48,806 bases of DNA. It comes from Candidatus Methylomirabilota bacterium (GTDB lineage Bacteria; Methylomirabilota; Methylomirabilia; Rokubacteriales; CSP1-6). Made by a program: the position numbers and the translations under genes. Below are positions 8,005 to 47,401 of this stretch, one piece after another. Below the pieces are notes generated by a model, which was given only the letters and a program-made list of their open reading frames with translations, did not search any database and was not told where the DNA came from. The first letter of the stretch is position 1. Every line of letters begins with the position of its first letter. Location of the stretch: contig DATIFV010000163.1 in NCBI GenBank assembly GCA_035455085.1, forward strand, positions 1 to 48,806, written 5' to 3'.

Positions 8005-8606
8005 TGAAGGGCAAGGGCGAGCACGGCCGCACCACGGTGGCGCAGCTGCAGCTGCTGCTGGAGGCGGAGCGCGTCGCGGCCGCGACCGTCTCCGGCCTCA
8101 TCCCGATGGCGGCGACCCCGGCAACGGGCCGGCTCCTCGAGAAGCTCCGGGACGACGAGGCGTGGTCGTGCGCCGGCCTGACCCGGGTCATCCGGCATCT
8201 CGGCGGCAAGGTGTCGCCCGAGGACGGGAGCGTCGCGCCGCGGGTGCGGGGCGGGTCGTCGGTCCGGGAGCGCCTCGGGGGGCTCACCCGCGACCAGGCC
8301 CGGGTCGTGAAGCGCCTCGATCGGATCCTGAGCGAGGGGCTCGACCGGGAGAGCGGAGGGTTCCTGCGTCAGATGCGGTCGCTGCACGCGGAGAACGTGC
8401 ACCGCTGCGAGGAGCTCATCGCGACGCTCCCGGCGGGCGCCGCGGCGGGGCGCACGCGGCGGATGAGGCCGGTGTCCTCCGAGAACTCGACCAGCAGGGC
8501 CTGGCCCGGGGCGATCGTCACCTCCTCGTCGAGCTGCCAGCGCCGGGGCGCCGCGCCCGCGGCACTGTCCGCAGACCCGTCCGCCAGGGTCACGCCGAGC
8601 CGGTAG
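8004..8606 (+). CDS. ferritin-like DUF6306-type protein with long unstructured tail
   Basis: The ATG overlaps the mutase stop (TGATG). LLLEAERVAA...DEAWSCAGL...LTRDQARVVKRL...HAENV matches the pattern I recall for DUF6306. The last ~55 codons look like read-through tail and overlap the convergent gene. Confidence 0.6.
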   Translation: MKGKGEHGRTTVAQLQLLLEAERVAAATVSGLIPMAATPATGRLLEKLRDDEAWSCAGLTRVIRHLGGKVSPEDGSVAPRVRGGSSVRERLGGLTRDQARVVKRLDRILSEGLDRESGGFLRQMRSLHAENVHRCEELIATLPAGAAAGRTRRMRPVSSENSTSRAWPGAIVTSSSSCQRRGAAPAALSADPSARVTPSR

Positions 8607-9001
8607 CGGCCGGGGCGTACCGCCAGCTCCTCGTAGGCGAAGGTGGGCCCGTCCCGGCGCAGGCCGCCCGGTGAGTAGCGCCGCTCGAGCAGCACGCGGC
8701 CGTCGAGCTCCACGCGCAGCACCGTGTCCGTGCGCCGGCCGGTCTGGGCCCGCTCCGGGCTGGTCGGCCGCATGTGGCGCGGTAGCTTCTCGATCTCCTC
8801 CATCGAGCGCGCGGGCCCGGCGTGCTCGAAGGCGGCCACGTGCTTGAAGGCGACCCGGATCATCGCGGCCTCCTGATCCGAGGCGGCCCACGGATACGCC
8901 GCGAGCGCCCCCAGGCCCCAGGAGACGGCGCCCAGCAGCAGGGCGAAGCCCGCGAGCCGGCCGGGCCGCGGGCGGCGATCCTCGACGGCGGGCGCGGTCA
9001 C
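8369..9001 (-). CDS. membrane-anchored hypothetical protein, last gene of the oxidase operon
   Basis: The GTG at 9001 overlaps the TGA of the upstream gene (GTGA). One N-terminal hydrophobic helix (LAGFALLLGAVSWGLGALAAY) followed by a beta-rich domain. The C-terminal ~30 codons look like tail. Confidence 0.55.
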   Translation of the reverse strand: MTAPAVEDRRPRPGRLAGFALLLGAVSWGLGALAAYPWAASDQEAAMIRVAFKHVAAFEHAGPARSMEEIEKLPRHMRPTSPERAQTGRRTDTVLRVELDGRVLLERRYSPGGLRRDGPTFAYEELAVRPGRYRLGVTLADGSADSAAGAAPRRWQLDEEVTIAPGQALLVEFSEDTGLIRRVRPAAAPAGSVAMSSSQRCTFSACSDRI

Positions 9002-10662
9002 CGGCCCGCCTCCTCTCGCTCCGGCGCGGACCGGCCCAGGTCGCGCTGGAAGTCGCCCACGTCGCGGAGGAGGCGGCCGACCTCGACCGGCGAGTACCAG
9101 CGCGCCCGCAGGCGTCCCTCCGGCGCGGCCTTCAGCGCGGGGAGACGCCGGCCGGTCAGCCGCTCGGCCAGCCACTGGCTGCCCTCGCGGAACGGGCAGT
9201 CCTCGGGAATGCAGCCGGCCACGAAGACGCCGGCGGCCCCGGCCTCTATCGTCTTCGTGATCATGTCCGGGTGGAGCATCCCGACGCAGGGGAGCCCCAT
9301 CACGGTGACGCCGGGCAGCGCGGCCAGCGTGCCGTCGGCGGCGAGCCGACCCGCGAGGCTCCGCATCATGCGGCAGGTGTAGACGAGCACGGGCGCCCGA
9401 CCTTCGCGGGCGCTCACGCCGCGCAGCCGGGCGGTCACCGCCTGGCCCAGCAGGCTCACCGGCTGATCCCCCAGCAGGATCCCGGCCGAATCGCAGGCGC
9501 CGACGCAGATGCCGCACCCCACGCACTTGGCGGGGTTCACCACCGCCACCTGCTTGTAGCGGGTGCCGTCGTGCCGCGGCACCATCACGATGGCCTCGTA
9601 GGGGCAGTCCTTCCAGCATCGCGTGCAGCCGGTGCACGCGATGTTCTCGACCCGGGCCCGCGCCGGTGCCGGCCCGCGCAGGACCCACGGCACCACGAGC
9701 GCGGCCGCCCCGCCGATCAGGAGCAGACCCCAGCCCCACCGGGGGTCCAGGCGCGTGAGCGGGAAGTAGAAGAAGTAGAACCAGTCGATGGGGATCGTCC
9801 CGGGCAGGCGCCCCAGGTCCGCCGGGGGGCCCGAGAGCGCCGGCCGCAGCACGCTCGCGATCAGCAGGGCGGCGCCGGTCACCGCGAGGACGATCCGCGG
9901 CGGCATGAAGCGCGCCCGGGAGAGGCGCATCACGTGCAGCCAGTAGGCCGCCCCGAGCAGCAGGGGGATCGTGACGTGGATGAAGAGCACGAGGAAGAAG
10001 AGGAAGTTCTGGATGCGCCCGGCGTCGAGGAAGGTGCGGACCAGCGGCTCGCCGAACACCGGCAGCACGTCGAGCAGCTTGGCGATGGTGACCGAGAGCA
10101 CCTGCGCCTGCATGTCCCAGACCAGCCAGTAGCCGGTGGCGCTCGTCACCCAGACGAGGCCGAGCAGGGTGAGCCCCGACACCCAGCCGATCCAGCGCGC
10201 TCCCCAGAACCGGTCGTTCAGGAACATCTTGAGGCCGTGCAGCGCGGCGGCCACGATCGCCGCGTCCGAGGCGTAGCGGTGGAGCGAGCGCATGAGGGCG
10301 CCGATGCCCCACGGCTGCGCCATGATCTCCTCGATGGAGCGGTGCGCCTCCTCGGTGCCCACGCGATAGAAGAGGAAGAGGTAGATGCCGGTCACCAGGG
10401 CCACCGCCAGCGAGAACACCGCGATGGTGCCGGTGTGGTAGAGCGGGTTGAGGGGCGCCGATACCAGCCGGTCGAGCAGCGCCTCGATCCACTGGTAGGC
10501 CGCTCCGGCCCGGAGGAGCGCGCGCCGGTGCAGGCGCTCGCGCGGGCCCGTGACCGGGAAGACGGGCGGGAGCGCGGCGACCGGCCCGAGCGGGAACGGC
10601 GGCGGCACCCCCGGCGAGCCGGACTGCACGCCGCTCGGCCCGTCGAGGACAGGGTCGTGCAC
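8998..10662 (-). CDS. fusion protein: di-haem cytochrome b (N-terminal domain) + 2x[4Fe-4S] ferredoxin + MvhD/FlpD-like domain
   Basis: The GTG at 10662 follows the Sco stop by 2 nt. Two His pairs are each separated by 13 residues (SLHRYASDAAIVAAALH; FIHVTIPLLLGAAYWLH). These are followed by CTGCTRCWKDCP and CVGCGICVGACD, then GLPCVGM...VAGCIPEDCPF. The exact start is uncertain. Confidence 0.8.
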   Translation of the reverse strand: MHDPVLDGPSGVQSGSPGVPPPFPLGPVAALPPVFPVTGPRERLHRRALLRAGAAYQWIEALLDRLVSAPLNPLYHTGTIAVFSLAVALVTGIYLFLFYRVGTEEAHRSIEEIMAQPWGIGALMRSLHRYASDAAIVAAALHGLKMFLNDRFWGARWIGWVSGLTLLGLVWVTSATGYWLVWDMQAQVLSVTIAKLLDVLPVFGEPLVRTFLDAGRIQNFLFFLVLFIHVTIPLLLGAAYWLHVMRLSRARFMPPRIVLAVTGAALLIASVLRPALSGPPADLGRLPGTIPIDWFYFFYFPLTRLDPRWGWGLLLIGGAAALVVPWVLRGPAPARARVENIACTGCTRCWKDCPYEAIVMVPRHDGTRYKQVAVVNPAKCVGCGICVGACDSAGILLGDQPVSLLGQAVTARLRGVSAREGRAPVLVYTCRMMRSLAGRLAADGTLAALPGVTVMGLPCVGMLHPDMITKTIEAGAAGVFVAGCIPEDCPFREGSQWLAERLTGRRLPALKAAPEGRLRARWYSPVEVGRLLRDVGDFQRDLGRSAPEREEAGR

Positions 10663-10664
10663 GC

Positions 10665-11561
10665 CTACCCCCGCTCCGCGAGCAGGCGCCCGAGTTCCTC
10701 GGCCTGGCGCTCCTCGGGATGGGCGAGGCCCCGATAGGTGAAGGCCAGGCGGCCGGCCCGATCGATGAAGGCCACGACGTTCTCGTGGGCGATCTCGCCG
10801 TCCGGCAGGGGCGCCCACTGCACCCGGTAGTCGCGGACGACCCGCCTCACCGTCGCGGGGTCGCCGCTCAGCAGATGCCAGCGCGGCCCGAGACCCCAGT
10901 GGGCGGCCGCCGCGGCCAGGGCGGCCGGCGTGTCCCGCTCTGGGTCGAGGCTCACCACCACGAAGGCGACCTCCGCCCGGGGCCGGCGGGCCTCGAGGGC
11001 CTTCAGGCGCTCGATCAGGAGCGGGCAGGAGGCGTGACAGCTCGCGTACGCGAACGTGAGCACCACCGGCCGGCCCCGGAAGCTCGCGAGCGAGACCGGC
11101 TGACCGCGATGGTCGACCAGACGGAGCTCCGGCGCCGGGGCCCCCTGGCGCAGCGGCGGCGGGAGCGTCGCCGGCGTGTAGCCCGTGCCGGAGGCCGAGA
11201 TCTCGCTGGTGGCGAGCAGCGAGGCGGCGAGGGCCATGAAGAGCAGCGGGGCCCCGATCGCGGCGAGCCGTCCCCCGCGCGCGCGGAGGAAGGCGCGCAG
11301 GTCGTCGCGATAGAACACGTACACCACCAGGGCGAAGAGGGGCGGCTGGAGCAGGGTCAGCAGGAGCGCGTCGAGACGGTAGTGCCGGGTCTCGGCGTTC
11401 CAGCCGAAGCATACGGTCAGGAGGGTATCGATCCACGGCGAGGATCCGCCCGCGAGCCCGGGGCCCAGCAGCAGGAAGGCGACGGTCCCGGCCCCCAGTC
11501 CGAAGATGGCCAGCACGAGGGCGGGCGCGAAGAGCCGGTGGGTCAGCAGGCCCGTCACCAT
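10665..11561 (-). CDS. SCO1/SenC copper chaperone with polytopic N-terminal membrane extension
   Basis: The ATG at 11561 overlaps the ctaB stop by 7 nt. Thioredoxin-fold motif FAYASCHASCP (CxxxC) plus a downstream His (IAHENV). About 120 N-terminal residues carry 3-4 hydrophobic segments. Confidence 0.8.
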   Translation of the reverse strand: MVTGLLTHRLFAPALVLAIFGLGAGTVAFLLLGPGLAGGSSPWIDTLLTVCFGWNAETRHYRLDALLLTLLQPPLFALVVYVFYRDDLRAFLRARGGRLAAIGAPLLFMALAASLLATSEISASGTGYTPATLPPPLRQGAPAPELRLVDHRGQPVSLASFRGRPVVLTFAYASCHASCPLLIERLKALEARRPRAEVAFVVVSLDPERDTPAALAAAAAHWGLGPRWHLLSGDPATVRRVVRDYRVQWAPLPDGEIAHENVVAFIDRAGRLAFTYRGLAHPEERQAEELGRLLAERG

Positions 11562-12424
11562 CTCCGGAGCCCCGCGTCCAGCACCACCCCCAGGAAGAGC
11601 AGCAGCAGGAACAGGTTCGAGGCGTGGAAGTTGGCCAGCGCGAGCCGCCGGTCCGTCGGCCGGCGGAGCAGCTCGAGGTTGCGGGCGAGGAGCAGGCCCC
11701 CGCCCGTCACCACGCCGACGAGCAGGTAGGGCCAGCCCAGCAGCCCCATCGCGAAGGGCAGCACGCTCGAGGCGAGCAGGCCCACCGTGTTCAGCAGGAT
11801 GCTGCGCGCGGTGCGGGCCTCGCCCTTCACCGCGGGCAGCATCGGGATCCGCGCGCCCGCGTAGTCGCTCTTGTAGGCAATGGCGAGCGACCAGAAGTGC
11901 GACGGGCTCCAGAAGAAGAGCACCGCCGCGAAGATGACCGGCGGCAGGCACAGCTCGGGACGGGCCAGCGCCCCGCCCGCGAGTACCGCGAAGGAGCCGG
12001 CGAGGCCCCCGATGACCACGTTGAGCCACGAGCGGCGCTTGAGCCAGATCGTGTAGATCACCACGTAGGTGAAGGCGCCGAGGAAGAGGTGCAGGGCCAC
12101 CAGGCGGTTCAGCCGCCACAGGGCCACGCTCACCGCGAGCGCGACGAGGCCGAGCCCCAGCGCCACGACGTGCCAGCCGTGGCGGATCTTTCCCGAGGGC
12201 AGGGGGCGCCGCGCGGTCCGGGGCATCCGGGCATCGAGATCGCGGTCGAGGAAGTGGTTGAGAGCCCCCGCGCCACCCGCCGCCATCACGGTCACCGCGA
12301 AGAGCAGCCCGAGCGACGGCAGCGACAGCCCCGCGGGCGCGGTGGCCAAGTAGCCCAGCACCGCGGCCATGCCGATGAAGGTTCCGACCCGGAGCTTGAG
12401 CGACTCGACGTAGGCGATGATCAT
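11555..12424 (-). CDS. ctaB: protohaem IX farnesyltransferase (haem O synthase)
   Basis: ATGA overlap with the upstream gene. UbiA-family motif NHFLDRDLDARMPRTARRPLPSG. 289 aa and polytopic. Confidence 0.9.
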   Translation of the reverse strand: MIIAYVESLKLRVGTFIGMAAVLGYLATAPAGLSLPSLGLLFAVTVMAAGGAGALNHFLDRDLDARMPRTARRPLPSGKIRHGWHVVALGLGLVALAVSVALWRLNRLVALHLFLGAFTYVVIYTIWLKRRSWLNVVIGGLAGSFAVLAGGALARPELCLPPVIFAAVLFFWSPSHFWSLAIAYKSDYAGARIPMLPAVKGEARTARSILLNTVGLLASSVLPFAMGLLGWPYLLVGVVTGGGLLLARNLELLRRPTDRRLALANFHASNLFLLLLFLGVVLDAGLRRW

Positions 12425-13848
12425 CGCGCACCTCCCCGTCGCAGGAGCGGGAGGCCCATGTTGATCACGAAGGCGAGCCCGCCCACGATGGCCAGCACCG
12501 AGCCCGCGCCCATCAGGTTCATCCCGATGAGCGCCTGCGCGTTGGCCCAGCTGAAGCCGAAGGTCTTGCGCGGCGCCCCGTGGCCGCCCGCCCAGTGCAT
12601 GCCGGCCATGATGCCGAGCAGCCCCAGCCCGTAGAGGTACGGCTGCCAGCGCGCCCAGCGCTCGCTCAGCGGGTGCCGGCCGGTCAGGCCCAGCAGCAGA
12701 GGGGTCAGGGCCATGTAGGAGAGGGTCACCGCGCCCACCATGCCGTGGTAGTGGGCGGGTACCCGCGTGTCCTGGGTGAAGCCGATGAGGCCCATCACGC
12801 CGCCGATCGCGAAGAGCGCGAACGAGACCACGGTGCCGCCGAAGAGGGGGCTGCCCCACGGCAGCGGCCGGGGCGCGGCGGCCACCACCGCCACCGCCAT
12901 GAAGAGCAGGGGCACCGCGCCCGCTCCGAGCCCGCCGAACGTCAGGATGGTGATCAGGTGATTGACGAGCAGCTCCTCGGGGCGCCACAGGAGATAGGCC
13001 GCGCCGGAGGCGACCGCGAACGGCGCCAGGATGGCCAGCAGCAGGCGCACGACGCGCCGGGCCGACGGGGCCATCCCGAGCGCCACCGCGAGCGCCACCA
13101 GCCAGCCCGTGGCCATGCCGGCCACGTGGAGGAACTGGAGCACGTGGCCGCCGCCCCAGACCACCGCCCGGAGCGTGTAGCCGAACGGCACCGCAGGGTC
13201 CGCGGCCGCGGCCGCGCGCATGAAGGCCGCGGCGGCCACGAGGACGGCGAGCGCCGCCACCGCCATCGCGAGGCCCTCGGGCGATTCGACCGCCACTCGC
13301 CCGCGCTCGCGCCGCAAGAGCACCGCCGCGGCTCCGCCCAGGTAGGCGGCGGCCTGGATGCCGACGCCGGCCCCGAGCAGGACGAGGCCGGTCCAGAAGA
13401 ACGGATGGTCGATCACCGGCAGGTAATCGTTCAGGTACGGCTGGCCCGAGGCGAGGAAGGCGGGCACCGCCATGGCCGCCGACCCGACCACCGACAGCCC
13501 GAGGGCGGCCCACGAGGCGGGGGCGCTCAGCGGATAGCCCGAGCGCCAGGCCACGTACACCCAGAGCACGCCCGCGAAGGCGACGAACCAGACCGTGAAG
13601 GCGAACGTCACGTGCGAGGTGAGCGCGAGACGGAACTGGGCGGCGTCGAAGAGGGTGTGGACCACCGGGGTGCGGGCGAAGGCGGCCAGCATGGCGAAGA
13701 AGCCCGCCACCACCAGCGAGCCCAGCGCCAGCCCGAGCCAGCCCACGATCAGGCGGCGCACGGGGCTCGGTACCGGCGAGGCCGGGTCGGCGCGCCGGCC
13801 GCGGTCGCGCGGCCGGCGATCGAGGAGGAAGGTCGCGTCGGGATTCAT
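12421..13848 (-). CDS. degenerate haem-copper oxidase subunit-I-like membrane protein (CuB His pair absent)
   Basis: 475 aa, starting 10 nt after the subunit I stop with a GGGGGTG RBS. Aligns by eye to the adjacent subunit I: the helix II His (TSHVTFAF), helix VI His (WGGGHVLQF) and helix X AHYHGMVGAV are retained. HHLLVDPQL of subunit I corresponds to AYLLWRPEEL here. Confidence 0.7.
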   Translation of the reverse strand: MNPDATFLLDRRPRDRGRRADPASPVPSPVRRLIVGWLGLALGSLVVAGFFAMLAAFARTPVVHTLFDAAQFRLALTSHVTFAFTVWFVAFAGVLWVYVAWRSGYPLSAPASWAALGLSVVGSAAMAVPAFLASGQPYLNDYLPVIDHPFFWTGLVLLGAGVGIQAAAYLGGAAAVLLRRERGRVAVESPEGLAMAVAALAVLVAAAAFMRAAAAADPAVPFGYTLRAVVWGGGHVLQFLHVAGMATGWLVALAVALGMAPSARRVVRLLLAILAPFAVASGAAYLLWRPEELLVNHLITILTFGGLGAGAVPLLFMAVAVVAAAPRPLPWGSPLFGGTVVSFALFAIGGVMGLIGFTQDTRVPAHYHGMVGAVTLSYMALTPLLLGLTGRHPLSERWARWQPYLYGLGLLGIMAGMHWAGGHGAPRKTFGFSWANAQALIGMNLMGAGSVLAIVGGLAFVINMGLPLLRRGGAR

Positions 13849-13858
13849 TGCGCACCCC

Positions 13859-15532
13859 CTACTTGATGATCCAGATGGCGGCCAGCCATTTCCAGTTGAG
13901 GAAGTAGTAGATGACGAAGGACGCCAGGAACACGAAGACGAGCACGAGGGTCCCCTTGATGGGCACGTGCTGCCCGCGGTCCTGGGGCAGCGCGGCCAGC
14001 GGCACCGCGCCCGCGGTGTCCGGCACCCGCCGCCCGAAGAGCACCGAGCCCACCGTGATCACCACGTAGAGGGCGCCGCCGGCCAGCGCGAAGAGCCCGC
14101 CCACGCCCATGATGCCGAGGAAGGCGAAGGCGGCCGCTTCCACCGGCGGCTGGAAGATCGACGAGGTGAACTGCACGTCCCAGTGCCGCCGCGGGATCGC
14201 GTAGGACCCGGCGGTGGTCATGCCGCCGATGAAGATGGTCATGCCGATGGCGAAGAGGTAGATCTGGGTCGTGGCGAGCTTCACCGAGATCAGATGCCGC
14301 CGGAAGATGAGCGGCACCACGTAGTACGTGAGTCCCATGAACGCGATGGTGGTGCCGGCGACCACGGTGGCGTGGAAGTGGCCGGTGATGCGCAGCGTGT
14401 TGTGGGAGATGATGTTGACCTGCTCGGCGCCGAAGGTGACGCCGGTGATGCCGCCGATGAAGCCGAAGAGCACCAGCGACAGGGCCAGCGCCGCGAAGCC
14501 CGGATTGCCCCACGGGGCCTTGGCCAGCCACTCGAAGAGCCCCTTGGTGAGCCCCTTCTTCCGCTGTGCGACCTCCACCGACGCGGGCACCGTCATCCCG
14601 TGGACCATGCTCGCGAGCACGGCCAGGTACATGCCGTAGCTGGTGTTCCAGATCTTCCACGCCGGCGAGAGCTGGGGATCCACGAGCAGATGGTGGGCGG
14701 AGGCCAGGTTGATGAAGAGGATGTAGAGGAGGAAGGCGGATCGGCAGACCTTCTCGTTCACCGGGGTCGCCCCCACCGTGAGGGTGGCCAGGAGGTACCA
14801 GATCGTGACCATGGCGCTCACGTTGATCTGCTGGGAGCTGTGCCCGAGGCCCCACCAGACCAGGCGGTAGATGCCGGGATCGATGGTCTGGATGATCCCC
14901 AGCGACCAGAGCCACGTGGGGACATAAATGATGGCCCCGTGGGCCAGGGTGACCACCGCGATGATGCCCGCGGTGGCGGCCCCGAAGGTCACCAGCGGGA
15001 TCGAGCCCTCGTACGTCCGCTCGGCCCGCGCGACCACCAGGCTCGCGAAGAAGTTGCAGACGCCGACGAGGGCGCCGACCGCGAACAGGATCCAGCCCAG
15101 GTAGAAGTAGGACACCGCCTGGAGGGGGGCGTAGGAGGTCATCATCACGTCGGCGCGGCCCGCGAGGATCGCGACGTCGATGAGCACCGAGCCTGCCACC
15201 ATGAGCGCGAACCCGAGCCAGCCCACCCGCGGCCAGGCGAGGCGGCTTCCCAGCACGATGGGCCCGGCAAAGTAGAGCACCGCGATCTCGAAGAAGATGA
15301 TCCAGAAGATCAGCATGTTGATGCCGTGGAAGGTCAGCGCTCGGTAGAAGCTCGTCGGGTCCAGCAGGTGGACGGCGGGCCAGCGGGTCAGCAGCACGAG
15401 AATTGCCGCGATGCCGCCGAAGAGGATGGAGAACACGCCGGCCACCGCGTGGACCTTGATGAGGCGCTCGGCGTGGTTGTGGACTCGGAGGCCGGTCTGG
15501 GCGCACGTTCTGAAGACGGCTTCGGTTGCCAT
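13859..15532 (-). CDS. haem-copper oxidase superfamily subunit I, B-family (ba3)-like, lacking the cross-linked Tyr
   Basis: 557 aa. AGGAGG RBS overlaps the subunit II stop. Metal ligands: LTFHGINML, WWGLGHSSQQ, ASAHHLLVDP, ITGHFHATV. Collinear with my recollection of Thermus CbaA, including LFEWLAKAPWGNPGF. Confidence 0.9.
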   Translation of the reverse strand: MATEAVFRTCAQTGLRVHNHAERLIKVHAVAGVFSILFGGIAAILVLLTRWPAVHLLDPTSFYRALTFHGINMLIFWIIFFEIAVLYFAGPIVLGSRLAWPRVGWLGFALMVAGSVLIDVAILAGRADVMMTSYAPLQAVSYFYLGWILFAVGALVGVCNFFASLVVARAERTYEGSIPLVTFGAATAGIIAVVTLAHGAIIYVPTWLWSLGIIQTIDPGIYRLVWWGLGHSSQQINVSAMVTIWYLLATLTVGATPVNEKVCRSAFLLYILFINLASAHHLLVDPQLSPAWKIWNTSYGMYLAVLASMVHGMTVPASVEVAQRKKGLTKGLFEWLAKAPWGNPGFAALALSLVLFGFIGGITGVTFGAEQVNIISHNTLRITGHFHATVVAGTTIAFMGLTYYVVPLIFRRHLISVKLATTQIYLFAIGMTIFIGGMTTAGSYAIPRRHWDVQFTSSIFQPPVEAAAFAFLGIMGVGGLFALAGGALYVVITVGSVLFGRRVPDTAGAVPLAALPQDRGQHVPIKGTLVLVFVFLASFVIYYFLNWKWLAAIWIIK

Positions 15533-15541
15533 GGGGGCCTC

Positions 15542-16069
15542 CTACTCGACCGTGATCTTGCCCACCATCTGGTGGTGCCCGATCCCGCAGAACTCGTTGC
15601 AGACCACGAAGACCTCGCCGCTCGTCGTCGGGGTGATGGTGAGCACGTACTCGTAGCCGGGCAGGACCATGAAGTTGAGGTTCAGGGGGAAGAGCGAGAA
15701 GCCGTGGACGAGGTCCATGGAGGACAGGTGCAGGCGGTAGGTCTCGCCCTTCTTGAGCTTGAGTGCCGGGTACCACTGCCAGAGCCTCCCCAGCATGTAG
15801 ACGTCCTGCGCGGGATCGGGGGCGATCACCGGCAGCCCCTTCTCTTCCCCGACCTTCGGTCCGGACTCGACGAAGGCCTCCACCTTCTCCATGTACTGCG
15901 CCGGGGTGGTCCGGTAGGTCTCGAAGGACGGGTTCTGGCCGCCCTTGAGATGCCAGAGCGGCATCATCGCGAAGAGGATGAGGCACCACAGGAGCGCGAT
16001 CGCGAGCCAGATCTTCTCGCTCGCGTCGACTTTCTTCCACCACACGCCCTTGAGAGTCTGCAGGCTCAT
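15542..16069 (-). CDS. haem-copper oxidase subunit II, short single-TM cupredoxin with complete CuA site
   Basis: 175 aa. DLVHGFSL plus CNEFCGIGHHQM (C-x3-C-x3-H-x2-M). No cytochrome c domain. Confidence 0.9.
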   Translation of the reverse strand: MSLQTLKGVWWKKVDASEKIWLAIALLWCLILFAMMPLWHLKGGQNPSFETYRTTPAQYMEKVEAFVESGPKVGEEKGLPVIAPDPAQDVYMLGRLWQWYPALKLKKGETYRLHLSSMDLVHGFSLFPLNLNFMVLPGYEYVLTITPTTSGEVFVVCNEFCGIGHHQMVGKITVE

Positions 16070-16413: not shown

Positions 16414-17478
16414 CTAGTGCCCGCCCGTCCCGTGGGTGCCCGGCACCAGCGTCCGGAAGATGCCGGGCTGCTCGGCGCCCGCCACCTCCAGGACCCCGAG
16501 GGCGCCCTTCTCCATCGCCCGCACGATGCTGTGGTCCACGAGCAGGAAGCGCCCCGGCACCTGCACCGTCATCTCCACGATGGCCGCGCCGCCCGCCGGG
16601 ATCAGGGTGGTCTGCACGTTCTGGGCCGGAGCGCCGGCGCCCAGCGCGCCCTCGGTGTAGACGTGGTCGAAGATCTCGCCGATCACGTGGAAGGAGGAGA
16701 TGAGGTTGGGCCCGCCGTTGCCCACGAAGAGCCGGACCTGCTCGCCGACCTTCGCGTGGATCGCCCCCTCGCCCGCGAGCGCGCCCATCTTGCCGTTGAA
16801 CACCACGTACTCGGGCCGCTCCGCGGTCAGCTTGGCCGGATCGAGCGGCTGGAGCCCCGGCGCGAGCGTCCTGCCCTTGGTATAGAACTCGCCCTGCATG
16901 ACGTAGTACTCGCGGTCCACGCGGGGCAGCCCCTTCTCGGGCTCGACGAGGATCAGCCCGTACATGCCGTTGGCGATGTGCGCGGGCACGCTCGGGGTCG
17001 CGCAGTGATAGACGTAGAGCCCGGGGTTCAGCGCCTTGAACTCGAAGGCGCCTTCCTGGCCCGGCCCCAGCTGGGTCACCGCCGCGCCGCCGCCCGGCCC
17101 GGTCACCGCGTGCAGGTCGATCGAGTGCGGGTGCATGCTCTTCTCCGCGTTCCTGAGGCGGATCTGCACGACGTCACCCACGCGCACCCGGACGAAGGGA
17201 CCCGGCACCGTGCCGCCGAAGGTCCAGAACGTGTACCGCACGCCGTCGGCGAGGGTGCCCGTGACCTCGGTGGTCTCGAGATCGACGATCACCTTCGCGT
17301 TGCCGGGGCGGTCCACCGGCGGCGGCACGAGCGGGGCCGAGGTGAGGATGGCCTTCACTTCCGGGAGCGCGGCGGGCTCGGCGGCCTTGTCGCGGGCCTG
17401 GCTCTGCCAGATCATCGCGCCCGCCACCAGCAGCCCGGCCGTTGCCAGCGTCGTCATCGTGGTCAACCCCCGTCTCAT
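16414..17478 (-). CDS. nirK: copper-containing nitrite reductase
   Basis: 354 aa with a signal-like N-terminus. Type-2 Cu motif [14 protein letters not shown] and type-1 Cu motif [29 protein letters not shown]. Confidence 0.92.
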
Positions 17479-17685: not shown

Positions 17686-17973
17686 CTAGGGGCGGGGGTC
17701 CAGGGCGATGCGGTCGGGGGTCCAGGGCGGCTCGAAGGTGATGGCCACCTCGACGGCCTCGACACCCGGGATCCGCGCGACCGCCTGCCGCACCCACCCG
17801 GCCATGGAGTCGTGGAGAGGGCAGCCCGGCGCGGTCAGGGTCATGGTGACCTGCACGCGGCCGCCGTCGATCTGCACGCCGTAGATCAGCCCGAGATCCA
17901 CGATGGACATCCCGAGCTCGGGATCGAAGACGTCCCGGAGCGCCTGCGTGACCTGCCCGTGGGTGACGCTCAC
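17686..17973 (-). CDS. DUF59 (SufT/MIP18-like) metal-sulfur cluster assembly factor
   Basis: The GTG overlaps the radical SAM stop (GTGA). DPELGMSIVDLGLIY...LTAPGCPLHD...PPWTPDRI. Confidence 0.8.
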   Translation of the reverse strand: MSVTHGQVTQALRDVFDPELGMSIVDLGLIYGVQIDGGRVQVTMTLTAPGCPLHDSMAGWVRQAVARIPGVEAVEVAITFEPPWTPDRIALDPRP

Positions 17974-19115
17974 GCGTGGACCTCCCGCACGACGGGCTCG
18001 TGGGCGCACCCCGGATCCTCCGCCAGCGGGTTTCCGGTGAGCGCGTAGGCCCGCGCGCGGCTGCCCCCGCAGCGCTCGCGCCACTCGCAGCGCCCGCAGC
18101 GGCCCCCGAGCCGCGCCGGATCGCGCAGGGCCACGAAGAGCGGGTGCTCCCGGTAGACCGCGACGAGGTCGTCTCGCCGGACATTGCCGACCGGCAGCGG
18201 CAGGAACCCGCTCGGGCAGATGTCGCCGCGATGGTCCACGAAGACGAAGCCGTTGCCATCGGTGACCGCGCGCCCGGCGCGCATGCTTGGCCGCCCGCCG
18301 GATGTCCGAGACGGTTGTCCGCCGCTGGGGGAGTGCGGGGGCCATGTCTGGGCCCCCGCAGCTGAAGAGCTTGAAGAAGTAAACCAGTCTGCCCTCGCCG
18401 CCTCCGCGAGGACACGGTGGTAATGCGGGGCCTCCGTCGTCTTGATCCCGAAGGGGACGCGGCCCTGGAGGTCGGCCGCCCAGTGCAGCGCCTCCTCGAT
18501 CTCGCCGGCGGTGAGGCCCTGGTCGACCTGGGCGCGCCCTACCGGGATGAGGAAGAAGAGCGCCCAGAGGAGCACGCCGAAGCCGGTCACCTGGTTCACC
18601 AGTGCGGGCAGCTCCTTCACGGTCTGGCGGCAGACGGTCGTGTTGACCTGCAGCCCGAGCCCGAGCGCCCGCGCCCGCTCGATGATCCGGAGGGTGTAAC
18701 GGTGGGAGCCCCGCACGCCCCGGAAGGCGTCGTGGGTCTCCGGCCCGGCGCCGTCGAGGCTCACCGCGAGGCGGGCCAGCCCCGCATCCCGCAGGGCGCG
18801 GAGCTTGCCCTCGGTCACGGCGGCGGTTGCGCTCGGGGTCAGCGACACCATCAGGCCCCGGCGCGTGCCGTGCGCGACCAGCTCGGCGATGTCGGGACGC
18901 CGCAGCGGGTCTCCACCGGTCAGGACCACGAGCGGCGGCGGATCGCCGAAGGCGGCGATGCGGTCGAGCAGCGCCTTGCCCTCGTCGGTGGTGAGCTCGC
19001 CCGGATCGCGGCGCGGGATGGCCGCGGCCCGGCAGTGCACGCAGGCCAGCGCGCACGCCCGCGTCGTCTCCCAGATCGCGATGAAGGGGCTCCACGCGAA
19101 CACCGATGTCTCCAT
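17970..19115 (-). CDS. radical SAM/SPASM enzyme, NirJ/AhbD-like
   Basis: WETTRACALACVHCRA (CxxxCxxC), LTGGDPLRRPD, and a C-terminal SPASM Cys cluster CGRCEWRERCGGSRARAY. The ATG at 19115 lies 1 nt after the upstream stop. An alternative GTG start is at 19124. Confidence 0.85.
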   Translation of the reverse strand: METSVFAWSPFIAIWETTRACALACVHCRAAAIPRRDPGELTTDEGKALLDRIAAFGDPPPLVVLTGGDPLRRPDIAELVAHGTRRGLMVSLTPSATAAVTEGKLRALRDAGLARLAVSLDGAGPETHDAFRGVRGSHRYTLRIIERARALGLGLQVNTTVCRQTVKELPALVNQVTGFGVLLWALFFLIPVGRAQVDQGLTAGEIEEALHWAADLQGRVPFGIKTTEAPHYHRVLAEAARADWFTSSSSSAAGAQTWPPHSPSGGQPSRTSGGRPSMRAGRAVTDGNGFVFVDHRGDICPSGFLPLPVGNVRRDDLVAVYREHPLFVALRDPARLGGRCGRCEWRERCGGSRARAYALTGNPLAEDPGCAHEPVVREVHA

Positions 19116-19116
19116 G

Positions 19117-20430
19117 TCACCCACGCGCCGCCAGCGTGTGTCCCGCCTCCTCGCGGGTCGGTCGTCCGCCAGCCGAGAGCCGCCTCAGCACCCGCGCGAG
19201 CGCTCCCGCGAACGCGAGCGCGCCCAGCGCGAGCACGCCGCCGGCCATGCGGATCAGGACGGCGTCGCCGACGAGGACGGTGACGGCCAGCAGCGCCGTT
19301 CCGCCGGTGAGCAGCACGTAGGCCAGCCCCTCCGCCCGCGGCCAGGAGATCTGCGCCAAGGTCGGCACCGGCTCGCGGCCCGCGCGCGGGCTGTACGCGC
19401 GGTACCAGACCAGGAACGGGACGATCTTGAGCATCATCCCGGCGATGGTGAGGGAGACCCAGCCGCCCAGCGTCACGACGGCGTAGGCGAGCGCCACGCG
19501 GGGCCCGCCGAGGAGATCCGCGGCCATCGCCACCCCGAGAACGGCGGCGGGGGCGAGGAACGCGGCGGCGGTGAGGACGAAGCGGAGCCCCCAGTCGAGA
19601 CCGGGCCGCTTTCGCCGCCACGCCATCTCTGCCATCCAGGCCGCGTGGGCTCCCGCTGCCACCGCCACCGCGAGCGCGCCGATCACGAGGAGCCCCGGCA
19701 CCCCGAGGAGGCCCAGCACCACCGCCGGCCCGCCGGCCACGAGGCCCCAGAGCTGCAGGGCGGAGTGCGCCGGCCGGGGCGCGGGGGCGAGGAAGAACAT
19801 CGGATACACGCGTGCGGACACGGCGGCGATCATCGGCGCCACCCAGCCGAGGAGGGCCAGCTGCACGTGAGCGTGCAGGGTCGGGAAGAGCTCCCCCGGG
19901 AGGAACGGCCAGATGCGGTTGACCGCCAGGGCCAGGCCGAACACGGTCGTCAGGGCGAGCCCGCCGTAGCCGACCACGACGAGCCGCGCGGTGAACGTCC
20001 AGCGGTCGAAGCCCTGCAGGCTCATCCCGACGTTGACCAGGTGCGCGACGATGCCCACCGCCAGCATCCCCGCCGCGGACGCCAGCCCGGGCCAGGTGCC
20101 CAGGTAGAAGTGGGCGACCATGCCGATCACCGCGACCGCCAGGACGGCGAGCTCCCAGCGGGCGAGCCGCTCGCTCCAGATCGGCCGCTCGAGCACGATC
20201 GGGACGAGCTGGTAGCTGGCGCCCAGGATCGCGATCGTGATCCAGCCGAGCGTGACGGTGTGGGTGAGCGCGAGCAGTCGCGGGTGGTAGTAGTGGCCTG
20301 CCAGCTCGGGGCCGAGCCAGGTCACCCCGAGCGCGGCCGTCAGGAAGGCCGCCGCGGAGCAGACCAGGTAGGCCAGCGGGACGAGGGGCGAGGGGCCGCT
20401 TCCGGGCCGCGGCGGCACCGGCATGCTCAT
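19117..20430 (-). CDS. polytopic (about 12 TM) His-motif membrane protein, NnrS-like
   Basis: 437 aa. ATGA overlap with the upstream gene. Repeated module LTHTVTLGW...ASYQLVP / TLHAHVQLALLGW...ARVYPMF. The family assignment is from memory of the NnrS HAHE motif and is not verified. Confidence 0.6.
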   Translation of the reverse strand: MSMPVPPRPGSGPSPLVPLAYLVCSAAAFLTAALGVTWLGPELAGHYYHPRLLALTHTVTLGWITIAILGASYQLVPIVLERPIWSERLARWELAVLAVAVIGMVAHFYLGTWPGLASAAGMLAVGIVAHLVNVGMSLQGFDRWTFTARLVVVGYGGLALTTVFGLALAVNRIWPFLPGELFPTLHAHVQLALLGWVAPMIAAVSARVYPMFFLAPAPRPAHSALQLWGLVAGGPAVVLGLLGVPGLLVIGALAVAVAAGAHAAWMAEMAWRRKRPGLDWGLRFVLTAAAFLAPAAVLGVAMAADLLGGPRVALAYAVVTLGGWVSLTIAGMMLKIVPFLVWYRAYSPRAGREPVPTLAQISWPRAEGLAYVLLTGGTALLAVTVLVGDAVLIRMAGGVLALGALAFAGALARVLRRLSAGGRPTREEAGHTLAARG

Positions 20431-21269
20431 GCCGGGCCCCTGCGGATGAGGATGCGCACCAGTCCCGGCTCCGGCTCGTCGGTCTGGTGGACGAAGCCGC
20501 GCTCGTCGAGCTGCGGGTAGAGGAACATCGGGCGGCGCTCGTGGCGGACCTCGAGCTCCGAGCCCGGCTCGAGCCGGTCGATTGCCTCCAGCACCCGCAC
20601 CATGGGCTGCGGCGGCTCGAGCCCCCGCACGTCCAGCACGGTGCGCCCGCGCGGGGCGGGCGCGGGCGGCGCCGCCGGCTCTGCGCGCGGAGCGGCGGCG
20701 GCGCGGTAGAAGGCGACGGACCAGTCGTCGTCGGCGCGGCGCTCCGTCCAGTGCGCGAAGCCGCGCTTGGCCAGCACGTCGTAGAGCGGGATGGGCTCGA
20801 AGGGCGCGCGGAGTACCAGCGCCTGGTCGGCGTTCAGCGCCTTGACCGCGGCCATGATGCGCGGGAACGGCTCCCGGCCCAGGCGGATGTCCTCGCGCAC
20901 GTCGACGTGGACTTGGCGGGCCTCCGGCACGTCGACGAGCGCGCGCGGCGGCCCACCCTCACCCCGGCCCTCTCCCTCGAAGGGGGCCGTCCCGCCTCTC
21001 GCCTCGGGGGAGACGGCAGGGTGAGGGGGCCCAGGGTGAGGGGCTTCCGGCGACGCCTCCCCCACCGCCTGCCGCAGCACGGCCAGGAGCTCGTCCACCG
21101 GAACGCCGGCCATGCCGGCGGCCTCGGCGACGGTCACGCGCGGCGCCATGACCCCCCGGAGCAGCGGGTTCCGGAGCTGGCCGAAGTGCGGGTGGTAGCC
21201 GGCCAGCACCTCGACCAGCTCCGGATGCTCGTCGAGCAGCCGGGCCACCGTGACGTCGCCCGAGATCAT
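20427..21269 (-). CDS. DUF1858 + two DUF2249 domains protein
   Basis: Starts at the ATG at 21269 (MISGDVTVARLLDEHPELVEVL). Two SirA/TusA-like repeats (VHVDVREDIRLGREPF...; VLDVRGLEPPQPMVRVLEAI...). The linker is encoded by REP-like repeats. Confidence 0.75.
   Translation of the reverse strand: MISGDVTVARLLDEHPELVEVLAGYHPHFGQLRNPLLRGVMAPRVTVAEAAGMAGVPVDELLAVLRQAVGEASPEAPHPGPPHPAVSPEARGGTAPFEGEGRGEGGPPRALVDVPEARQVHVDVREDIRLGREPFPRIMAAVKALNADQALVLRAPFEPIPLYDVLAKRGFAHWTERRADDDWSVAFYRAAAAPRAEPAAPPAPAPRGRTVLDVRGLEPPQPMVRVLEAIDRLEPGSELEVRHERRPMFLYPQLDERGFVHQTDEPEPGLVRILIRRGPA
20952..21043. repeat. REP-like element copies B1/B2 (head-to-head) inside the DUF1858/DUF2249 coding sequence
   Basis: CCACCCTCACCCCGGCCCTCTCCCTCGAAGGGGG (reverse orientation), then CCGCCTCTCGCCTCGGGGGAGACGGCAGGGTGAGGGGG plus an extra CCCAGGGTGAGGGG. 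Confidence 0.65.
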
Positions 21270-21340
21270 GCGGGGGTCTTTCCCTCGAGCGCGCCGAGCA
21301 GGGTGACGGCGACCGGGGCGTCGCTGCACTCGTGAGCCAT
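21266..21340 (-). CDS. 24-codon upstream ORF (MAHECSDAPVAVTLLGALEGKTPA) coupled to the DUF1858 gene; not in ORF track
   Basis: ATG at 21340 with GAGGAGG 6 nt upstream. Its TGA overlaps the ATG at 21269 (ATGA). Confidence 0.45.
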   Translation of the reverse strand: MAHECSDAPVAVTLLGALEGKTPA

Positions 21341-21419: not shown

Positions 21420-21887
21420 CTACGGAAGGGGGTGGACGCTCAGGATGATCGCGTCGATGCGATCGAGGGCCGGGTACGCGGCGATCACCCTGACGAAGTA
21501 GCCGTCGAGGTTGTGCCACCCCCGGCTGTCGCGCCTCACCAGATCGGCCCGCGGCCGGGCCGGCAGGTTGACGGCCTCGAGCGCGGCTTCGTAGGTGCGC
21601 GGGGCGAGGGCGGCGTCGGGGAAGGCGATCACCGCGGTGGTGCTCTGCTCGGCCTCGAAGTCGATGTCGATCCGCACCCCGCGCCCGTCGTACGTGCGCG
21701 AGGTGCCGCCCGCGGGTAGCTGGAAGTCCCCCGGGGCCACCGCGCTGGTGCGCACCGGCTGTCCCAGGACCGCCCGGACCGCCGCCGGCGACTGCTGGAG
21801 GATCGTCGACGGATCCAGCATCCCGCCCGCGACTGCCGGCGATCCCGGGGTCAGGGTCAGCCACCCAAGCACCAGCAGCCCTGCCAC
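21420..21887 (-). CDS. small secreted hypothetical protein
   Basis: GTG at 21887 preceded by AGGAGG with 6-nt spacing. Signal-like VAGLLVLGWLTLTPGSPAVAGG. The upstream part of ORF 21420..22133 is Arg/Pro junk. Confidence 0.55.
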   Translation of the reverse strand: MAGLLVLGWLTLTPGSPAVAGGMLDPSTILQQSPAAVRAVLGQPVRTSAVAPGDFQLPAGGTSRTYDGRGVRIDIDFEAEQSTTAVIAFPDAALAPRTYEAALEAVNLPARPRADLVRRDSRGWHNLDGYFVRVIAAYPALDRIDAIILSVHPLP

Positions 21888-22077
21888 CGGGGCCCTCCTG
21901 CGCTCGTGTGCCGGAATCGCTCGATCCTCTTGGGGCCTCGCGTTTGCACGTGGAGTGCCAGCCCCGAAGTGCCGGGAAACCGGATACTTCGGTGATCCCC
22001 GGTCCGCTCGACATGGGGCACGCGGGCCGCACCGCGGCCCCCGCGCGCCCCGCAGGCCCCGTGCTATCCTGCCGCCG

Positions 22078-46163: not shown

Positions 46164-47401
<1,238 letters not shown>

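What the first reader, a model, noticed from the sequence alone, without database searches (positions are those of the whole stretch)
12421..13848. Second subunit-I-like protein that keeps the haem ligands but has lost the CuB His-His pair
Immediately downstream of the catalytic subunit lies a 475-aa paralogue. By manual alignment it keeps the helix II His, the helix VI His and the helix X H-x-H (AHYHGMVGAV versus GHFHATVVAG). The HH pair of helix VII is AY (ASGAAYLLWRPEEL versus ASAHHLLVDPQL), and there is no Tyr after the helix VI His. A haem-binding but CuB-less HCO fold inside an oxidase/NOR operon is not a standard subunit. It could be a haem-handling or assembly scaffold, a regulatory pseudo-enzyme, or a novel catalytic variant.
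Basis: partly seen in the sequence, partly recalled or inferred. Interest (0 to 1): 0.7.

Follow-up and report, generated by a model that had tools for sequence, protein, structure and literature searches.

The report
Copper-less twin of NO-reductase subunit I
Next to a nitric-oxide reductase gene sits a diverged copy of its catalytic subunit that keeps the haem-binding residues but has lost the copper site and proton channel. It belongs to a large unnamed protein family that travels with haem- and copper-insertion genes, so it is probably an assembly helper, not an enzyme.

Summary
Window 12421-13848 (-) encodes a 475-aa protein with the 12-helix subunit I fold of haem-copper oxidoreductases (HCOs). 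It is 27% identical to the adjacent eNOR-type catalytic subunit.

Across 130 diverse relatives, four histidines are invariant: helix II, helix VI and the helix X H-x-H. The haem-propionate Arg/Lys pair is also invariant. The helix VII His-His pair, the cross-link Tyr/Gln position, the K-channel residues and the H376/D372 loop are all lost. No shifted histidine pair exists.

This is a family trait. The family is large (228 clusters at E<=1e-30), carries only generic names, and is closest to eNOR subunit I.

Its genes are overlapped or fused with haem O synthase CtaB, Sco1 and a cytochrome b/Fe-S protein. In other lineages they sit next to CtaA and CtaM (DUF420). They occur beside eNOR operons and also beside ordinary aa3 oxidase operons.

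The best reading is a di-haem, copper-less "pseudo-subunit I" that acts in cofactor maturation of haem-A enzymes. A redox or haem-modifying role is not excluded. One 2026 preprint calls the apparent Ferrigenium counterpart, matched here only by gene order, an "eNOR scaffold protein of unknown function".

The parts
12421..13848 (-). Target gene: 475-aa CuB-less paralogue of HCO subunit I ('pseudo-subunit I')
   Evidence: ORF. Pfam COX1 41.6 bits. AF2 pLDDT 89.9 with 12 TM helices. Foldseek best match ba3 subunit I. dN/dS 0.19-0.24 against close orthologues.
13612..13614 (-). Codon of H79, the helix II His (axial ligand of the low-spin haem; ba3 H72)
   Evidence: 130/130 in the family; codon checked.
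13135..13146 (-). H235-V-L-Q238 on helix VI. H235 is the only surviving CuB-type His (ba3 H233). Q238 (ba3 position 236) is shared with eNOR. The next residue, F239, replaces the cross-link Tyr/Gln.
   Evidence: H 129/130, Q 128/130, F 94/130; codons.
12994..12999 (-). A284-Y285, where catalytic HCOs have the helix VII His-His pair (ba3 H282/H283)
   Evidence: Family: position 284 is L/I/F/A/V; position 285 is Y 58, A 21, F 13, L 9, H 7 of 130. Confirmed.
12745..12753 (-). H366-Y367-H368, the helix X H-x-H (proximal His of the high-spin haem and second axial His of the low-spin haem)
   Evidence: H 130/130, Y 130/130, H 129/130.
12565..12570 (-). R427-K428, aligned with the haem-propionate pair R449/R450 of ba3
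   Evidence: R 129/130, K 130/130.
13849..13858 (-). 10-nt spacer with a GGGGG(T)G Shine-Dalgarno-like run between the stop of eNOR subunit I and the target ATG
   Evidence: Sequence read.
12421..12424 (-). ATGA overlap: target stop TGA and ctaB start ATG (translational coupling)
   Evidence: Sequence read; in P0106 and P0125 the two proteins are fused.
13859..15532 (-). Catalytic subunit I of eNOR type (helix VI GHSSQQ; all six His present)
   Evidence: Pfam COX1 212 bits. Best solved relative ba3, E 2e-40. Gln at the Tyr237 column. The eNOR criterion comes from PMC8756737.
15542..16069 (-). CuA-type subunit II
   Evidence: Pfam COX2 and TIGR02866; CxExCGxxHxxM motif in the translation.
16414..17478 (-). 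Copper nitrite reductase NirK, the upstream producer of NO
   Evidence: TIGR02376 at 340 bits, above its cut-off.
11555..12424 (-). Haem O synthase CtaB
   Evidence: TIGR01473 at 251 bits, above its cut-off.
10665..11561 (-). Sco1/SenC copper chaperone; its start overlaps the end of ctaB
   Evidence: Pfam SCO1-SenC 77.7 bits; start candidates.
8998..10662 (-). Fusion of cytochrome b (N-terminal type), two 4Fe-4S motifs and an FlpD/MvhD-like domain
   Evidence: Pfam. GTG start 2 nt after the sco1 stop. In L033 its homologue overlaps the target homologue by 8 nt. In P0139 a cytochrome b domain is fused to a target domain.
8369..9001 (-). 'u166': unknown protein with one TM helix plus a beta-rich domain; last gene of the operon (GTGA overlap)
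   Evidence: 33% identity to the 166-aa protein of L033. Present in 39/62 informative loci, usually directly upstream of the target homologue. No Pfam match.

Best explanation
The gene encodes a diverged duplicate of eNOR subunit I, a 'pseudo-subunit I'. It still binds two haems: a bis-His low-spin haem (H79/H368) and a His-ligated haem (H366), both anchored by R427/K428. It has no CuB/FeB site, no cross-link residue and no K-type proton channel, so it cannot reduce NO or O2 the way an HCO does. It most likely works as a cofactor-maturation factor for HCOs that use haem A. It is made together with the catalytic subunit and with haem O synthase. In this model it takes up newly made haem O/A(s) from CtaB (and CtaA where present) in sites that mimic those of subunit I. 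It then holds or presents the haem for insertion into apo-subunit I. Sco1, the cytochrome b/Fe-S protein and u166 would form the rest of the maturation module. Shown here: the fold, the ligand pattern, loss of the catalytic features, purifying selection, operon coupling, and the conserved neighbourhood and fusions. Inferred: haem binding itself, the direction of haem hand-over, and the role of the cytochrome b/Fe-S partner (perhaps keeping the bound haem or a partner reduced).
For: Fold and ligands. Loss of catalytic equipment: H282/H283, Y237, the K-channel residues Y244/Y248/S309/T312/T315 and the H376/D372 loop are lost family-wide, whereas the eNOR neighbours keep most of them. The gene is functional: dN/dS 0.19-0.24 at dS 0.45-0.7, and the protein called 'eNOR scaffold protein' was detected in the Ferrigenium proteome. 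Coupling in the window: 10-nt spacer after eNOR-I, ATGA overlap with ctaB, and overlapping starts through sco1, cytb-FeS and u166. Neighbourhood in 62 informative loci: CtaB 49, eNOR-type HCO 45, Sco1 45, u166 39, a cytochrome b protein 38, CtaA 13. Fusions: with CtaB (P0106, P0125), with Sco1 (four independent clusters), with cytochrome b and with TPR repeats. Contexts outside NOR: a ctaA-ctaB-homologue operon in Aquificaceae with no HCO within 6-8 kb, and DUF420(CtaM)->homologue->CtaB beside canonical COX2-COX1-Cox11-COX3 operons. CtaM, Sco, CtaA and CtaB are established oxidase biogenesis factors, and how haem A reaches subunit I is stated to be unknown (PMC9145763; PMC8239418).
Against: There is no experiment, so haem binding is predicted only from conserved ligands. 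A 12-helix protein with buried haem sites is an awkward donor of haem to another membrane protein. The helix VI His and the adjacent Gln are invariant, and so is a Tyr between the two helix X histidines. That pattern looks more like a working distal pocket than a passive holder. The tight coupling or fusion to a cytochrome b/Fe-S protein suggests electron transfer to the protein's haems, which a simple chaperone would not need. The detected Ferrigenium protein has a higher abundance value than Sco1 in the proteome table (28.0 vs 24.7).
Confidence: 0.45

Rival explanations
1. It is a redox-active membrane protein. The cytochrome b/Fe-S fusion (and, in Proteobacteria, a cytochrome b/Fer2/FNR fusion) carries cytoplasmic electrons across the membrane to its low-spin haem. 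Its His/Gln-lined high-spin haem then performs chemistry of its own, such as scavenging NO or O2, or feeds electrons to eNOR.
For: The cytb-Fer4-FlpD gene overlaps the target homologue by 8 nt in L033, and cytochrome b is fused to a target domain in P0139. A cytochrome b protein is present in 38/62 loci. H235, Q238, W231 and Y367 around the distal pocket are invariant. The Ferrigenium preprint proposes a respiratory supercomplex for the cytochrome b proteins.
Against: Members beside aa3 operons and in Aquificaceae have no cytochrome b/Fe-S partner nearby, so the partner is not universal. The K-channel and the H376/D372 region are lost. Fusions to CtaB and Sco1 are hard to explain for a respiratory enzyme.
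Confidence: 0.25
2. It is a haem-modifying enzyme: an HCO-derived alternative or auxiliary haem A synthase. It would bind haem O in the 'a3' site and oxidise its C8 methyl group with electrons relayed through the low-spin haem, perhaps at very low O2.
For: It has the same logic as CtaA: one bis-His cofactor haem plus one substrate haem site. It is fused or overlapped with CtaB, as CtaA often is. It occupies the slot between DUF420 and CtaB beside aa3 operons, with no CtaA detected by tblastn in L100 or L067 and none in the Pfam gene table of L116. There is no CtaA in this 48.8-kb window, although eNOR uses haem As (PMC11214002). The Ferrigenium preprint raises the puzzle of haem A synthesis under anoxia.
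Against: CtaA co-occurs in 13/62 loci and sits in one operon with the homologue in Aquificaceae. A CtaA-like gene follows it in Burkholderiales. No invariant acidic residue comparable to the catalytic Glu of CtaA was found among the >=90% conserved columns. Whole genomes could not be checked for CtaA elsewhere.
Confidence: 0.15
3. It is a permanent structural subunit of the mature eNOR complex, a degenerate partner like subunit III or a heterodimer mate, with no role in assembly.
For: It lies immediately downstream of subunit I in the same operon. A relative solved as a dimer exists (7deg). The Ferrigenium protein taken as its counterpart is reported at an appreciable value in that proteome.
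Against: The family also occurs with A-type oxidases and with ctaA-ctaB alone. In Proteobacteria the gene is separated from the structural genes by four to six assembly or redox genes. The published description gives eNOR two subunits (PMC8756737).
Confidence: 0.1
4. It is a decaying, functionless duplicate of subunit I.
For: It has lost two of six canonical histidines and evolves 2-3 times faster than the catalytic subunit.
Against: dN/dS is well below 1. Thirty-five columns are >=90% conserved across 130 members drawn from representatives of clusters at 50% identity. There are 228 representative clusters at E<=1e-30 across several phyla. The apparent counterpart protein was detected in Ferrigenium.
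Confidence: 0.02

Closest known systems
eNOR subunit I (haem-copper nitric oxide reductase, Rhodothermus marinus type; Murali et al. 2024, PMC11214002)
   Same: 12-helix fold. It is the closest HCO group by profile score (median 219 bits against 116-159 for B-type and no hit for A-type). It shares the Gln at ba3 position 236, W229, Y136 and the haem ligands. It is encoded in the same operon.
   Different: It lacks two of the three active-site histidines, the diagnostic Gln at the Tyr237 position, the K-channel residues and the H376/D372 loop. It evolves faster. It also occurs away from any eNOR.
B-family oxygen reductase subunit I (Thermus thermophilus ba3, e.g. 3S8F)
   Same: Best solved structural and sequence relative (TM 0.77; profile E 1.7e-30). 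Same haem ligand positions and Arg pair.
   Different: No His-Tyr cofactor, no CuB His pair, no K-path, and 12 rather than 13 helices.
'eNOR scaffold protein' of Ferrigenium straubiae (gene 2878407321; bioRxiv 10.64898/2026.01.22.701106)
   Same: KEGG labels it cytochrome c oxidase subunit I. It occupies the same position (Sco1, cytb-FeS-FAD, hypothetical, this gene..., cytb-FeS) as the family member in the Nitrosomonadales locus L035. The preprint states it is of unknown function, and it is detected in the proteome.
   Different: The Ferrigenium sequence itself was not available for comparison. The preprint gives a name only. In the passages searched I found no ligand analysis, family definition or evidence for a scaffold role.
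Surf1/Shy1 haem a chaperone
   Same: The proposed job is the same: bind haem A through a His and pass it from haem A synthase to subunit I. Surf1 is likewise encoded with oxidase genes (PMC9145763).
   Different: There is no sequence or fold relationship (Surf1 has two TM helices and a periplasmic domain). Haem A binding by the present protein is untested.
Haem A synthase CtaA/Cox15
   Same: Predicted two haem sites, one of them bis-His. Fusion or operon linkage with CtaB.
   Different: Unrelated fold (8 TM versus 12 TM) and no Pfam PF02628 match. CtaA often co-occurs with it.
CtaM (DUF420) assembly factor
   Same: Genomically coupled: the DUF420 gene overlaps or abuts the homologue in at least 10 loci. 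Both have an unassigned role in maturation of haem-A oxidases.
   Different: A different protein family (4-5 TM). No DUF420 gene is present in this window.

Membership tests
HCO superfamily, subunit I fold (Pfam PF00115) | Significant match to the COX1 profile above the curated cut-off | tested here: met
   41.6 bits against a cut-off of 34.8, E 9.5e-11, covering profile positions 4-429 of 436.
HCO superfamily, subunit I fold (Pfam PF00115) | 12-helix core superimposable on solved subunit I structures | tested here: met
   AF2 pLDDT 89.9 with 12 TM helices. Foldseek TM 0.77 to 3S8F chain A; 78 PDB matches at E<=0.001, and the 50 listed are all HCO/NOR subunit I chains.
Catalytic HCO (oxygen or NO reductase) | Six canonical histidines: two for the low-spin haem, one for the high-spin haem, three for CuB/FeB | tested here: not met
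   Four of six are present. H282/H283 equivalents are A284/Y285, and in the family they are hydrophobic / Y, A, F. There is no shifted His pair.
eNOR subunit I | Gln in place of the cross-linked Tyr (ba3 Y237 column), per PMC8756737 | tested here: not met
   F239 in the target and F in 94/130 family members; the two eNOR references (the window's subunit I and that of L033) have Q there.
eNOR subunit I | Conserved K-channel-like polar residues | tested here: not met
   The columns of Y244, Y248, S309, T312 and T315 are hydrophobic or variable in the family; eNOR has V, Y, S, H, T.
eNOR subunit I | Closest relationship by sequence profile | tested here: met
   Family HMM scores eNOR at a median of 219 bits (n=48), B-type at 116-159 bits, and A-type with no hit. 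This shows descent, not membership.
B-family oxygen reductase | His-Tyr cross-link cofactor on helix VI (H233-Y237) | tested here: not met
   The motif is H235-V-L-Q-F239.
cNOR / qNOR / NOD branch | Sequence relationship to NorB-type subunits, with three His plus Glu at the FeB site | tested here: not met
   The family profile finds only B-family chains in the PDB at E<=0.01. NorB appears only as a distant fold match (4xyd, rank 38).
Haem A synthase CtaA/Cox15 (PF02628) | Membership by sequence | tested here: not met
   Only PF00115 matches. Whether it works like CtaA is not testable with these tools.
Surf1 haem a chaperone | Specific binding of haem A and transfer to subunit I | not testable with these tools
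   There is no sequence relation. Any functional analogy is inferred from gene context only.
'eNOR scaffold protein' (Ferrigenium preprint) | Same gene as 2878407321 | tested here: inconclusive
   Gene order and KEGG label match locus L035, but the Ferrigenium sequence was not compared.

The most novel reading that the evidence does not exclude
The family is the missing haem-A step of many bacteria. In this reading, an HCO-derived protein either inserts haem A into subunit I (a non-homologous replacement for Surf1) or itself oxidises haem O to haem A, using electrons from a dedicated cytochrome b/Fe-S wire. The second route would let denitrifiers make haem-A enzymes such as eNOR at vanishing O2.
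Probability: 0.2. Interest if true: 0.85.

Novelty: new variant of a known kind. Interest (0 to 1): 0.62.

Why it matters
Reviews of oxidase biogenesis list Sco, PCuAC, Cox11, CtaA, CtaB, Surf1 and CtaM, and state that the route by which haem A enters subunit I is unknown (PMC9145763). This family is a large, conserved group of copper-less subunit I look-alikes, and public records give it only generic names. It is genetically tied to those same biogenesis factors in eNOR denitrifiers, in Alphaproteobacteria with aa3 oxidases, and in Aquificaceae. That makes it a concrete candidate for the missing step, and one that can be tested genetically. There is also a practical consequence. These genes are annotated as 'cytochrome c oxidase subunit I' or 'cbb3-type subunit I', and one apparent member carries KEGG K02274, so gene-count surveys may score them as extra oxidases or NO reductases.

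Tried and rejected
1. The idea that u166, the conserved small protein usually just upstream of the homologue, is a degenerate subunit II. hhalign of 52 u166 sequences against 45 subunit II sequences gave probability 0.5%, and Pfam finds nothing. Dropped.

2. The idea that the protein simply replaces CtaA. This is weakened because CtaA lies in 13/62 loci and in the same operon in Aquificaceae. It is kept only as a minor rival.

3. A first attempt to add ba3 to the family alignment with mafft --add misaligned the ligands. It was discarded and redone with L-INS-i.

4. The search for related loci on the most diverse alignment failed for lack of a conserved stretch. It was repeated with alignment A3.

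5. Lead: 'orf1' of the sNOR cluster norSY-senC-orf1 might be the same family. The paper checked (PMC4940428) gave only the gene-cluster name. Not resolved.

6. Literature searches for a described copper-less subunit I homologue found only the Ferrigenium preprint.

7. NCBIfam has no model for the protein.

8. Structure prediction of u166 was not run. Only its single window sequence could be submitted, and that would give a poor model.

9. Whole-genome presence or absence of CtaA and Surf1 could not be checked with the tools.
Full report
**What is at the coordinates.** Window 12421-13848 (-) is an intact 475-codon ORF with an ATG start and GC3 of 0.96, typical of real genes in this 72% G+C sequence. 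Ten nucleotides containing GGGGG(T)G separate its ATG from the TAG of the upstream subunit I gene. Its TGA overlaps the ATG of the next gene as ATGA. The closest relatives come from Candidatus Rokubacteria/Methylomirabilota metagenome-assembled genomes.

**The operon.** On the minus strand the genes run as follows.
- nirK, 16414-17478 (TIGR02376, 340 bits).
- A CuA subunit II, 15542-16069.
- An HCO subunit I, 13859-15532.
- The target, 12421-13848.
- Haem O synthase ctaB, 11555-12424 (TIGR01473).
- sco1, 10665-11561.
- A fusion of cytochrome b, two 4Fe-4S motifs and an FlpD domain, 8998-10662.
- An unknown 210-aa protein, here called u166, 8369-9001.

From subunit II onward the genes abut or overlap. 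The upstream subunit I has all six canonical histidines and the helix VI motif GHSSQQ, which puts Gln at the position of the cross-linked Tyr. That substitution is the published diagnostic of the eNOR family of NO reductases (PMC8756737; PMC11214002).

**Check of the observation.** The target matches Pfam COX1 above the gathering score (41.6 bits, E 9.5e-11). It aligns over its whole length with its neighbour (27% identity, E 3e-21; hhalign probability 99.1%). Three independent alignments agree on the ligand columns: hhalign to the neighbour, hmmsearch of a 42-sequence family profile against T. thermophilus ba3 (E 1.7e-30), and an L-INS-i alignment of 130 family members with ba3 and two eNORs.
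- H79 aligns with ba3 H72.
- H235 aligns with H233.
- H366 and H368 align with H384 and H386.
- A284/Y285 stand where H282/H283 should be.
- F239 stands at Y237.

No column between target positions 241 and 366 has even 20% His in the family, so the copper histidines are not merely shifted. The AlphaFold2 model is confident (pLDDT 89.9, pTM 0.90) and has twelve transmembrane helices. Its best structural match is ba3 subunit I (TM 0.77), followed by other HCO and NOR subunit I chains.

**It is a family trait, not a local decay.** An exhaustive HMMER search of 1.84 billion representatives gave 228 clusters (at 50% identity) with E<=1e-30 and 725 with E<=1e-10. A metagenome scan found at least 575 encoding loci. 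A search seeded with alphaproteobacterial and Aquificaceae members returned 2200 clusters at E<=1e-20.

In 130 members spanning this diversity:
- The four histidines, W231, G234, Q238, Y142, Y367 and the pair R427/K428 are 98-100% conserved. R427/K428 align with the haem-propionate arginines R449/R450 of ba3.
- The H282 column is always hydrophobic.
- The H283 column is Y 58, A 21, F 13, L 9, H 7.
- The Y237 column is mostly Phe.
- The K-channel columns (Y244, Y248, S309, T312, T315) are hydrophobic or variable.
- The loop carrying D372/H376 is shortened.

The window's gene is under purifying selection: dN/dS is 0.19-0.24 at dS 0.45-0.7, against 0.07-0.13 for the catalytic subunit. The family HMM scores eNOR subunits far higher (median 219 bits, n=48) than B-type oxidases (116-159 bits), and does not detect A-type COX1. 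The family also shares the Gln at ba3 position 236 with eNOR. It is therefore most simply a descendant of an eNOR-like subunit I. Where sources name these proteins at all, the names are generic ('cbb3-type cytochrome c oxidase subunit I', 'hypothetical protein'). NCBIfam has no model for the window's protein.

**Genomic company.**
- *Methylomirabilota/Rokubacteria-type loci.* The order subunit II, eNOR-I, target, CtaB, Sco1, cytb-FeS, u166 is fixed wherever the contigs reach far enough.
- *Proteobacteria.* The order is [CtaA, divergent], subunit II, eNOR-I, CtaB, Sco1, [cytb-Fer2-FNR, u166], cytb-Fer4-FlpD, u166, target homologue.
- *Counts.* Among 62 loci with at least 6 kb on one side, CtaB is present in 49, an HCO in 45, Sco1 in 45, u166 in 39, a cytochrome b protein in 38 and CtaA in 13. 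Of the 56 long neighbouring HCO genes, 53 carry the motif GH[S/P/A]SQQ, the eNOR type.
- *Fusions.* The family is fused to CtaB (P0106, P0125), to Sco1 (four separate 50%-identity clusters), to cytochrome b (P0139), to TPR repeats and once to a subunit II-like domain.
- *Beyond NO reductases.* In Aquificaceae the homologue is the third gene of a ctaA-ctaB-X operon with no HCO within 6-8 kb. In Alphaproteobacteria and related contigs it follows a DUF420 (CtaM) gene, often overlapping it. In L067, L100 and L116 a UbiA/CtaB gene comes next and a canonical COX2-COX1-Cox11-COX3 operon lies alongside; a Hyphomicrobium locus (L117) has the oxidase genes and DUF420 but no adjacent CtaB. These members keep the same signature.

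**Interpretation.** The conserved residues predict a protein that still holds two haems in the subunit I positions but has no binuclear centre and no proton supply from the cytoplasm. It is therefore unlikely to reduce NO or O2 as an HCO does.

Its constant companions are established biogenesis factors. CtaB and CtaA make haem O and haem A. Sco delivers copper. CtaM is required for active aa3 or caa3 oxidases, with no assigned step (PMC8239418; PMC9145763). The common denominator of its contexts is a haem-A-using HCO, since eNOR contains haem As in both sites (PMC11214002).

I therefore favour a cofactor-maturation role (confidence 0.45). In this model a pseudo-subunit I receives haem O/A from CtaB/CtaA in sites that mimic the real ones. 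It then holds or presents the haem to the nascent catalytic subunit. The review literature states that this hand-over step is unexplained.

Not everything fits a passive holder. The helix VI His, the neighbouring Gln and a Tyr between the helix X histidines are invariant. A cytochrome b/Fe-S protein is overlapped or fused with the gene. Both features suggest that electrons reach its haems.

That keeps two rivals alive. One is a redox protein with its own chemistry or a role in electron input (0.25). The other is an HCO-derived haem-O-oxidising enzyme (0.15). The latter is attractive because no CtaA lies in this window and haem A synthesis under denitrifying, near-anoxic conditions is a recognised puzzle. 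It is weakened by frequent co-occurrence with CtaA. A purely structural subunit (0.1) and a dead duplicate (0.02) are unlikely.

**Comparison with what is known.** The only mention I found is a 2026 preprint on Ferrigenium straubiae. It lists gene 2878407321 (KEGG: cytochrome c oxidase subunit I) as an 'eNOR scaffold protein' of unknown function. It says the composition of that eNOR operon, which includes this gene, is commonly observed. It also reports the protein in a proteome from nitrate-reducing, Fe(II)-oxidising culture. The gene order there matches a Nitrosomonadales locus that carries a family member, but I could not compare the sequences directly. In the passages I searched, that preprint gives no ligand analysis, family definition or evidence for a scaffold role. 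Neither the eNOR papers (PMC11214002, PMC8756737) nor the review of oxidase assembly proteins (PMC9145763) mentioned a subunit I-like accessory protein in the parts and term searches I ran.

The protein is a member of the HCO superfamily by fold and profile. It fails the defining tests of every catalytic family (eNOR, B-family, cNOR/qNOR). It is unrelated in sequence to Surf1 and CtaA, whose jobs it may resemble.

**Verdict.** It is best classed as a new variant of a known kind: a copper-less, channel-less derivative of NO reductase subunit I that defines a large uncharacterised family linked to haem and copper maturation genes. Interest is moderate to high. The function rests on genomic inference, but the family is abundant, mis-annotated as an oxidase, and offers a direct experimental handle on an open question in oxidase biogenesis.

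Noticed in passing
window 19117-20430 (-): A 437-aa polytopic membrane protein with only weak COX1 similarity (22.4 bits, below the cut-off). Its N-terminal region aligns with the helix X region of the eNOR subunit, and the sequence holds 'THT' and 'HAH' motifs. The target-family HMM does not detect it. It is conserved near eNOR clusters in 11 of 62 loci. Function unknown.
   Followed up: partly
window 22781-23224 (+): A 147-aa membrane protein that matches the first ~145 positions of the COX1 profile just above the cut-off (36.5 vs 34.8 bits) and contains an AHAH motif. It lies directly after a Crp/FNR-type regulator (21595-22779).
   Followed up: no
window 20427-21329 (-): A protein with DUF1858 plus two DUF2249 domains. 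Its stop overlaps the start of the weak COX1-like gene, so the two are likely co-expressed.
   Followed up: no
window 17686-19124 (-): A radical SAM protein (17970-19124) followed by a DUF59/FeS_assembly_P protein (17686-17985), placed between the weak COX1-like gene and nirK. Their role in this nitrogen-oxide locus is unclear.
   Followed up: no
window 8369-9001 (-) and loci L033-L115: The 'u166' family has one TM helix plus a beta-rich domain, a conserved His and an EELxKLPxxMR motif, and no Pfam match. It is present in 39/62 loci, usually immediately upstream of the target homologue or after a cytochrome b/Fe-S gene. It shows no similarity to subunit II.
   Followed up: partly
window 8998-10662 (-); L033 5962-7899: Membrane cytochrome b domains are fused to cytoplasmic redox modules: 2x4Fe-4S plus FlpD here, and Fer2 plus an FNR-like module (Pfam FAD_binding_6 + NAD_binding_1) in Proteobacteria. 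Such fusions could in principle carry electrons across the membrane. They are conserved in eNOR clusters.
   Followed up: partly
L033 11416-12225: In Burkholderiales the target homologue is followed, with a 4-nt overlap, by a 269-aa membrane protein that has a weak COX15/CtaA match (E 8e-4, below the cut-off). It may be a divergent haem A synthase-like partner.
   Followed up: partly
protein P0162 (622 aa, metagenomic): A family member carries a C-terminal domain similar to eNOR subunit II (BLASTP E 1e-25). This could be a real fusion or a gene-calling artefact.
   Followed up: no
window 45775-45852 (+) and 46164-47401 (-): A tRNA-Asp gene lies next to an IS3-type element: two overlapping ORFs with an ALIL frameshift pseudoknot at 47007-47123 (Rfam RF01497, 100 bits).
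   Followed up: no
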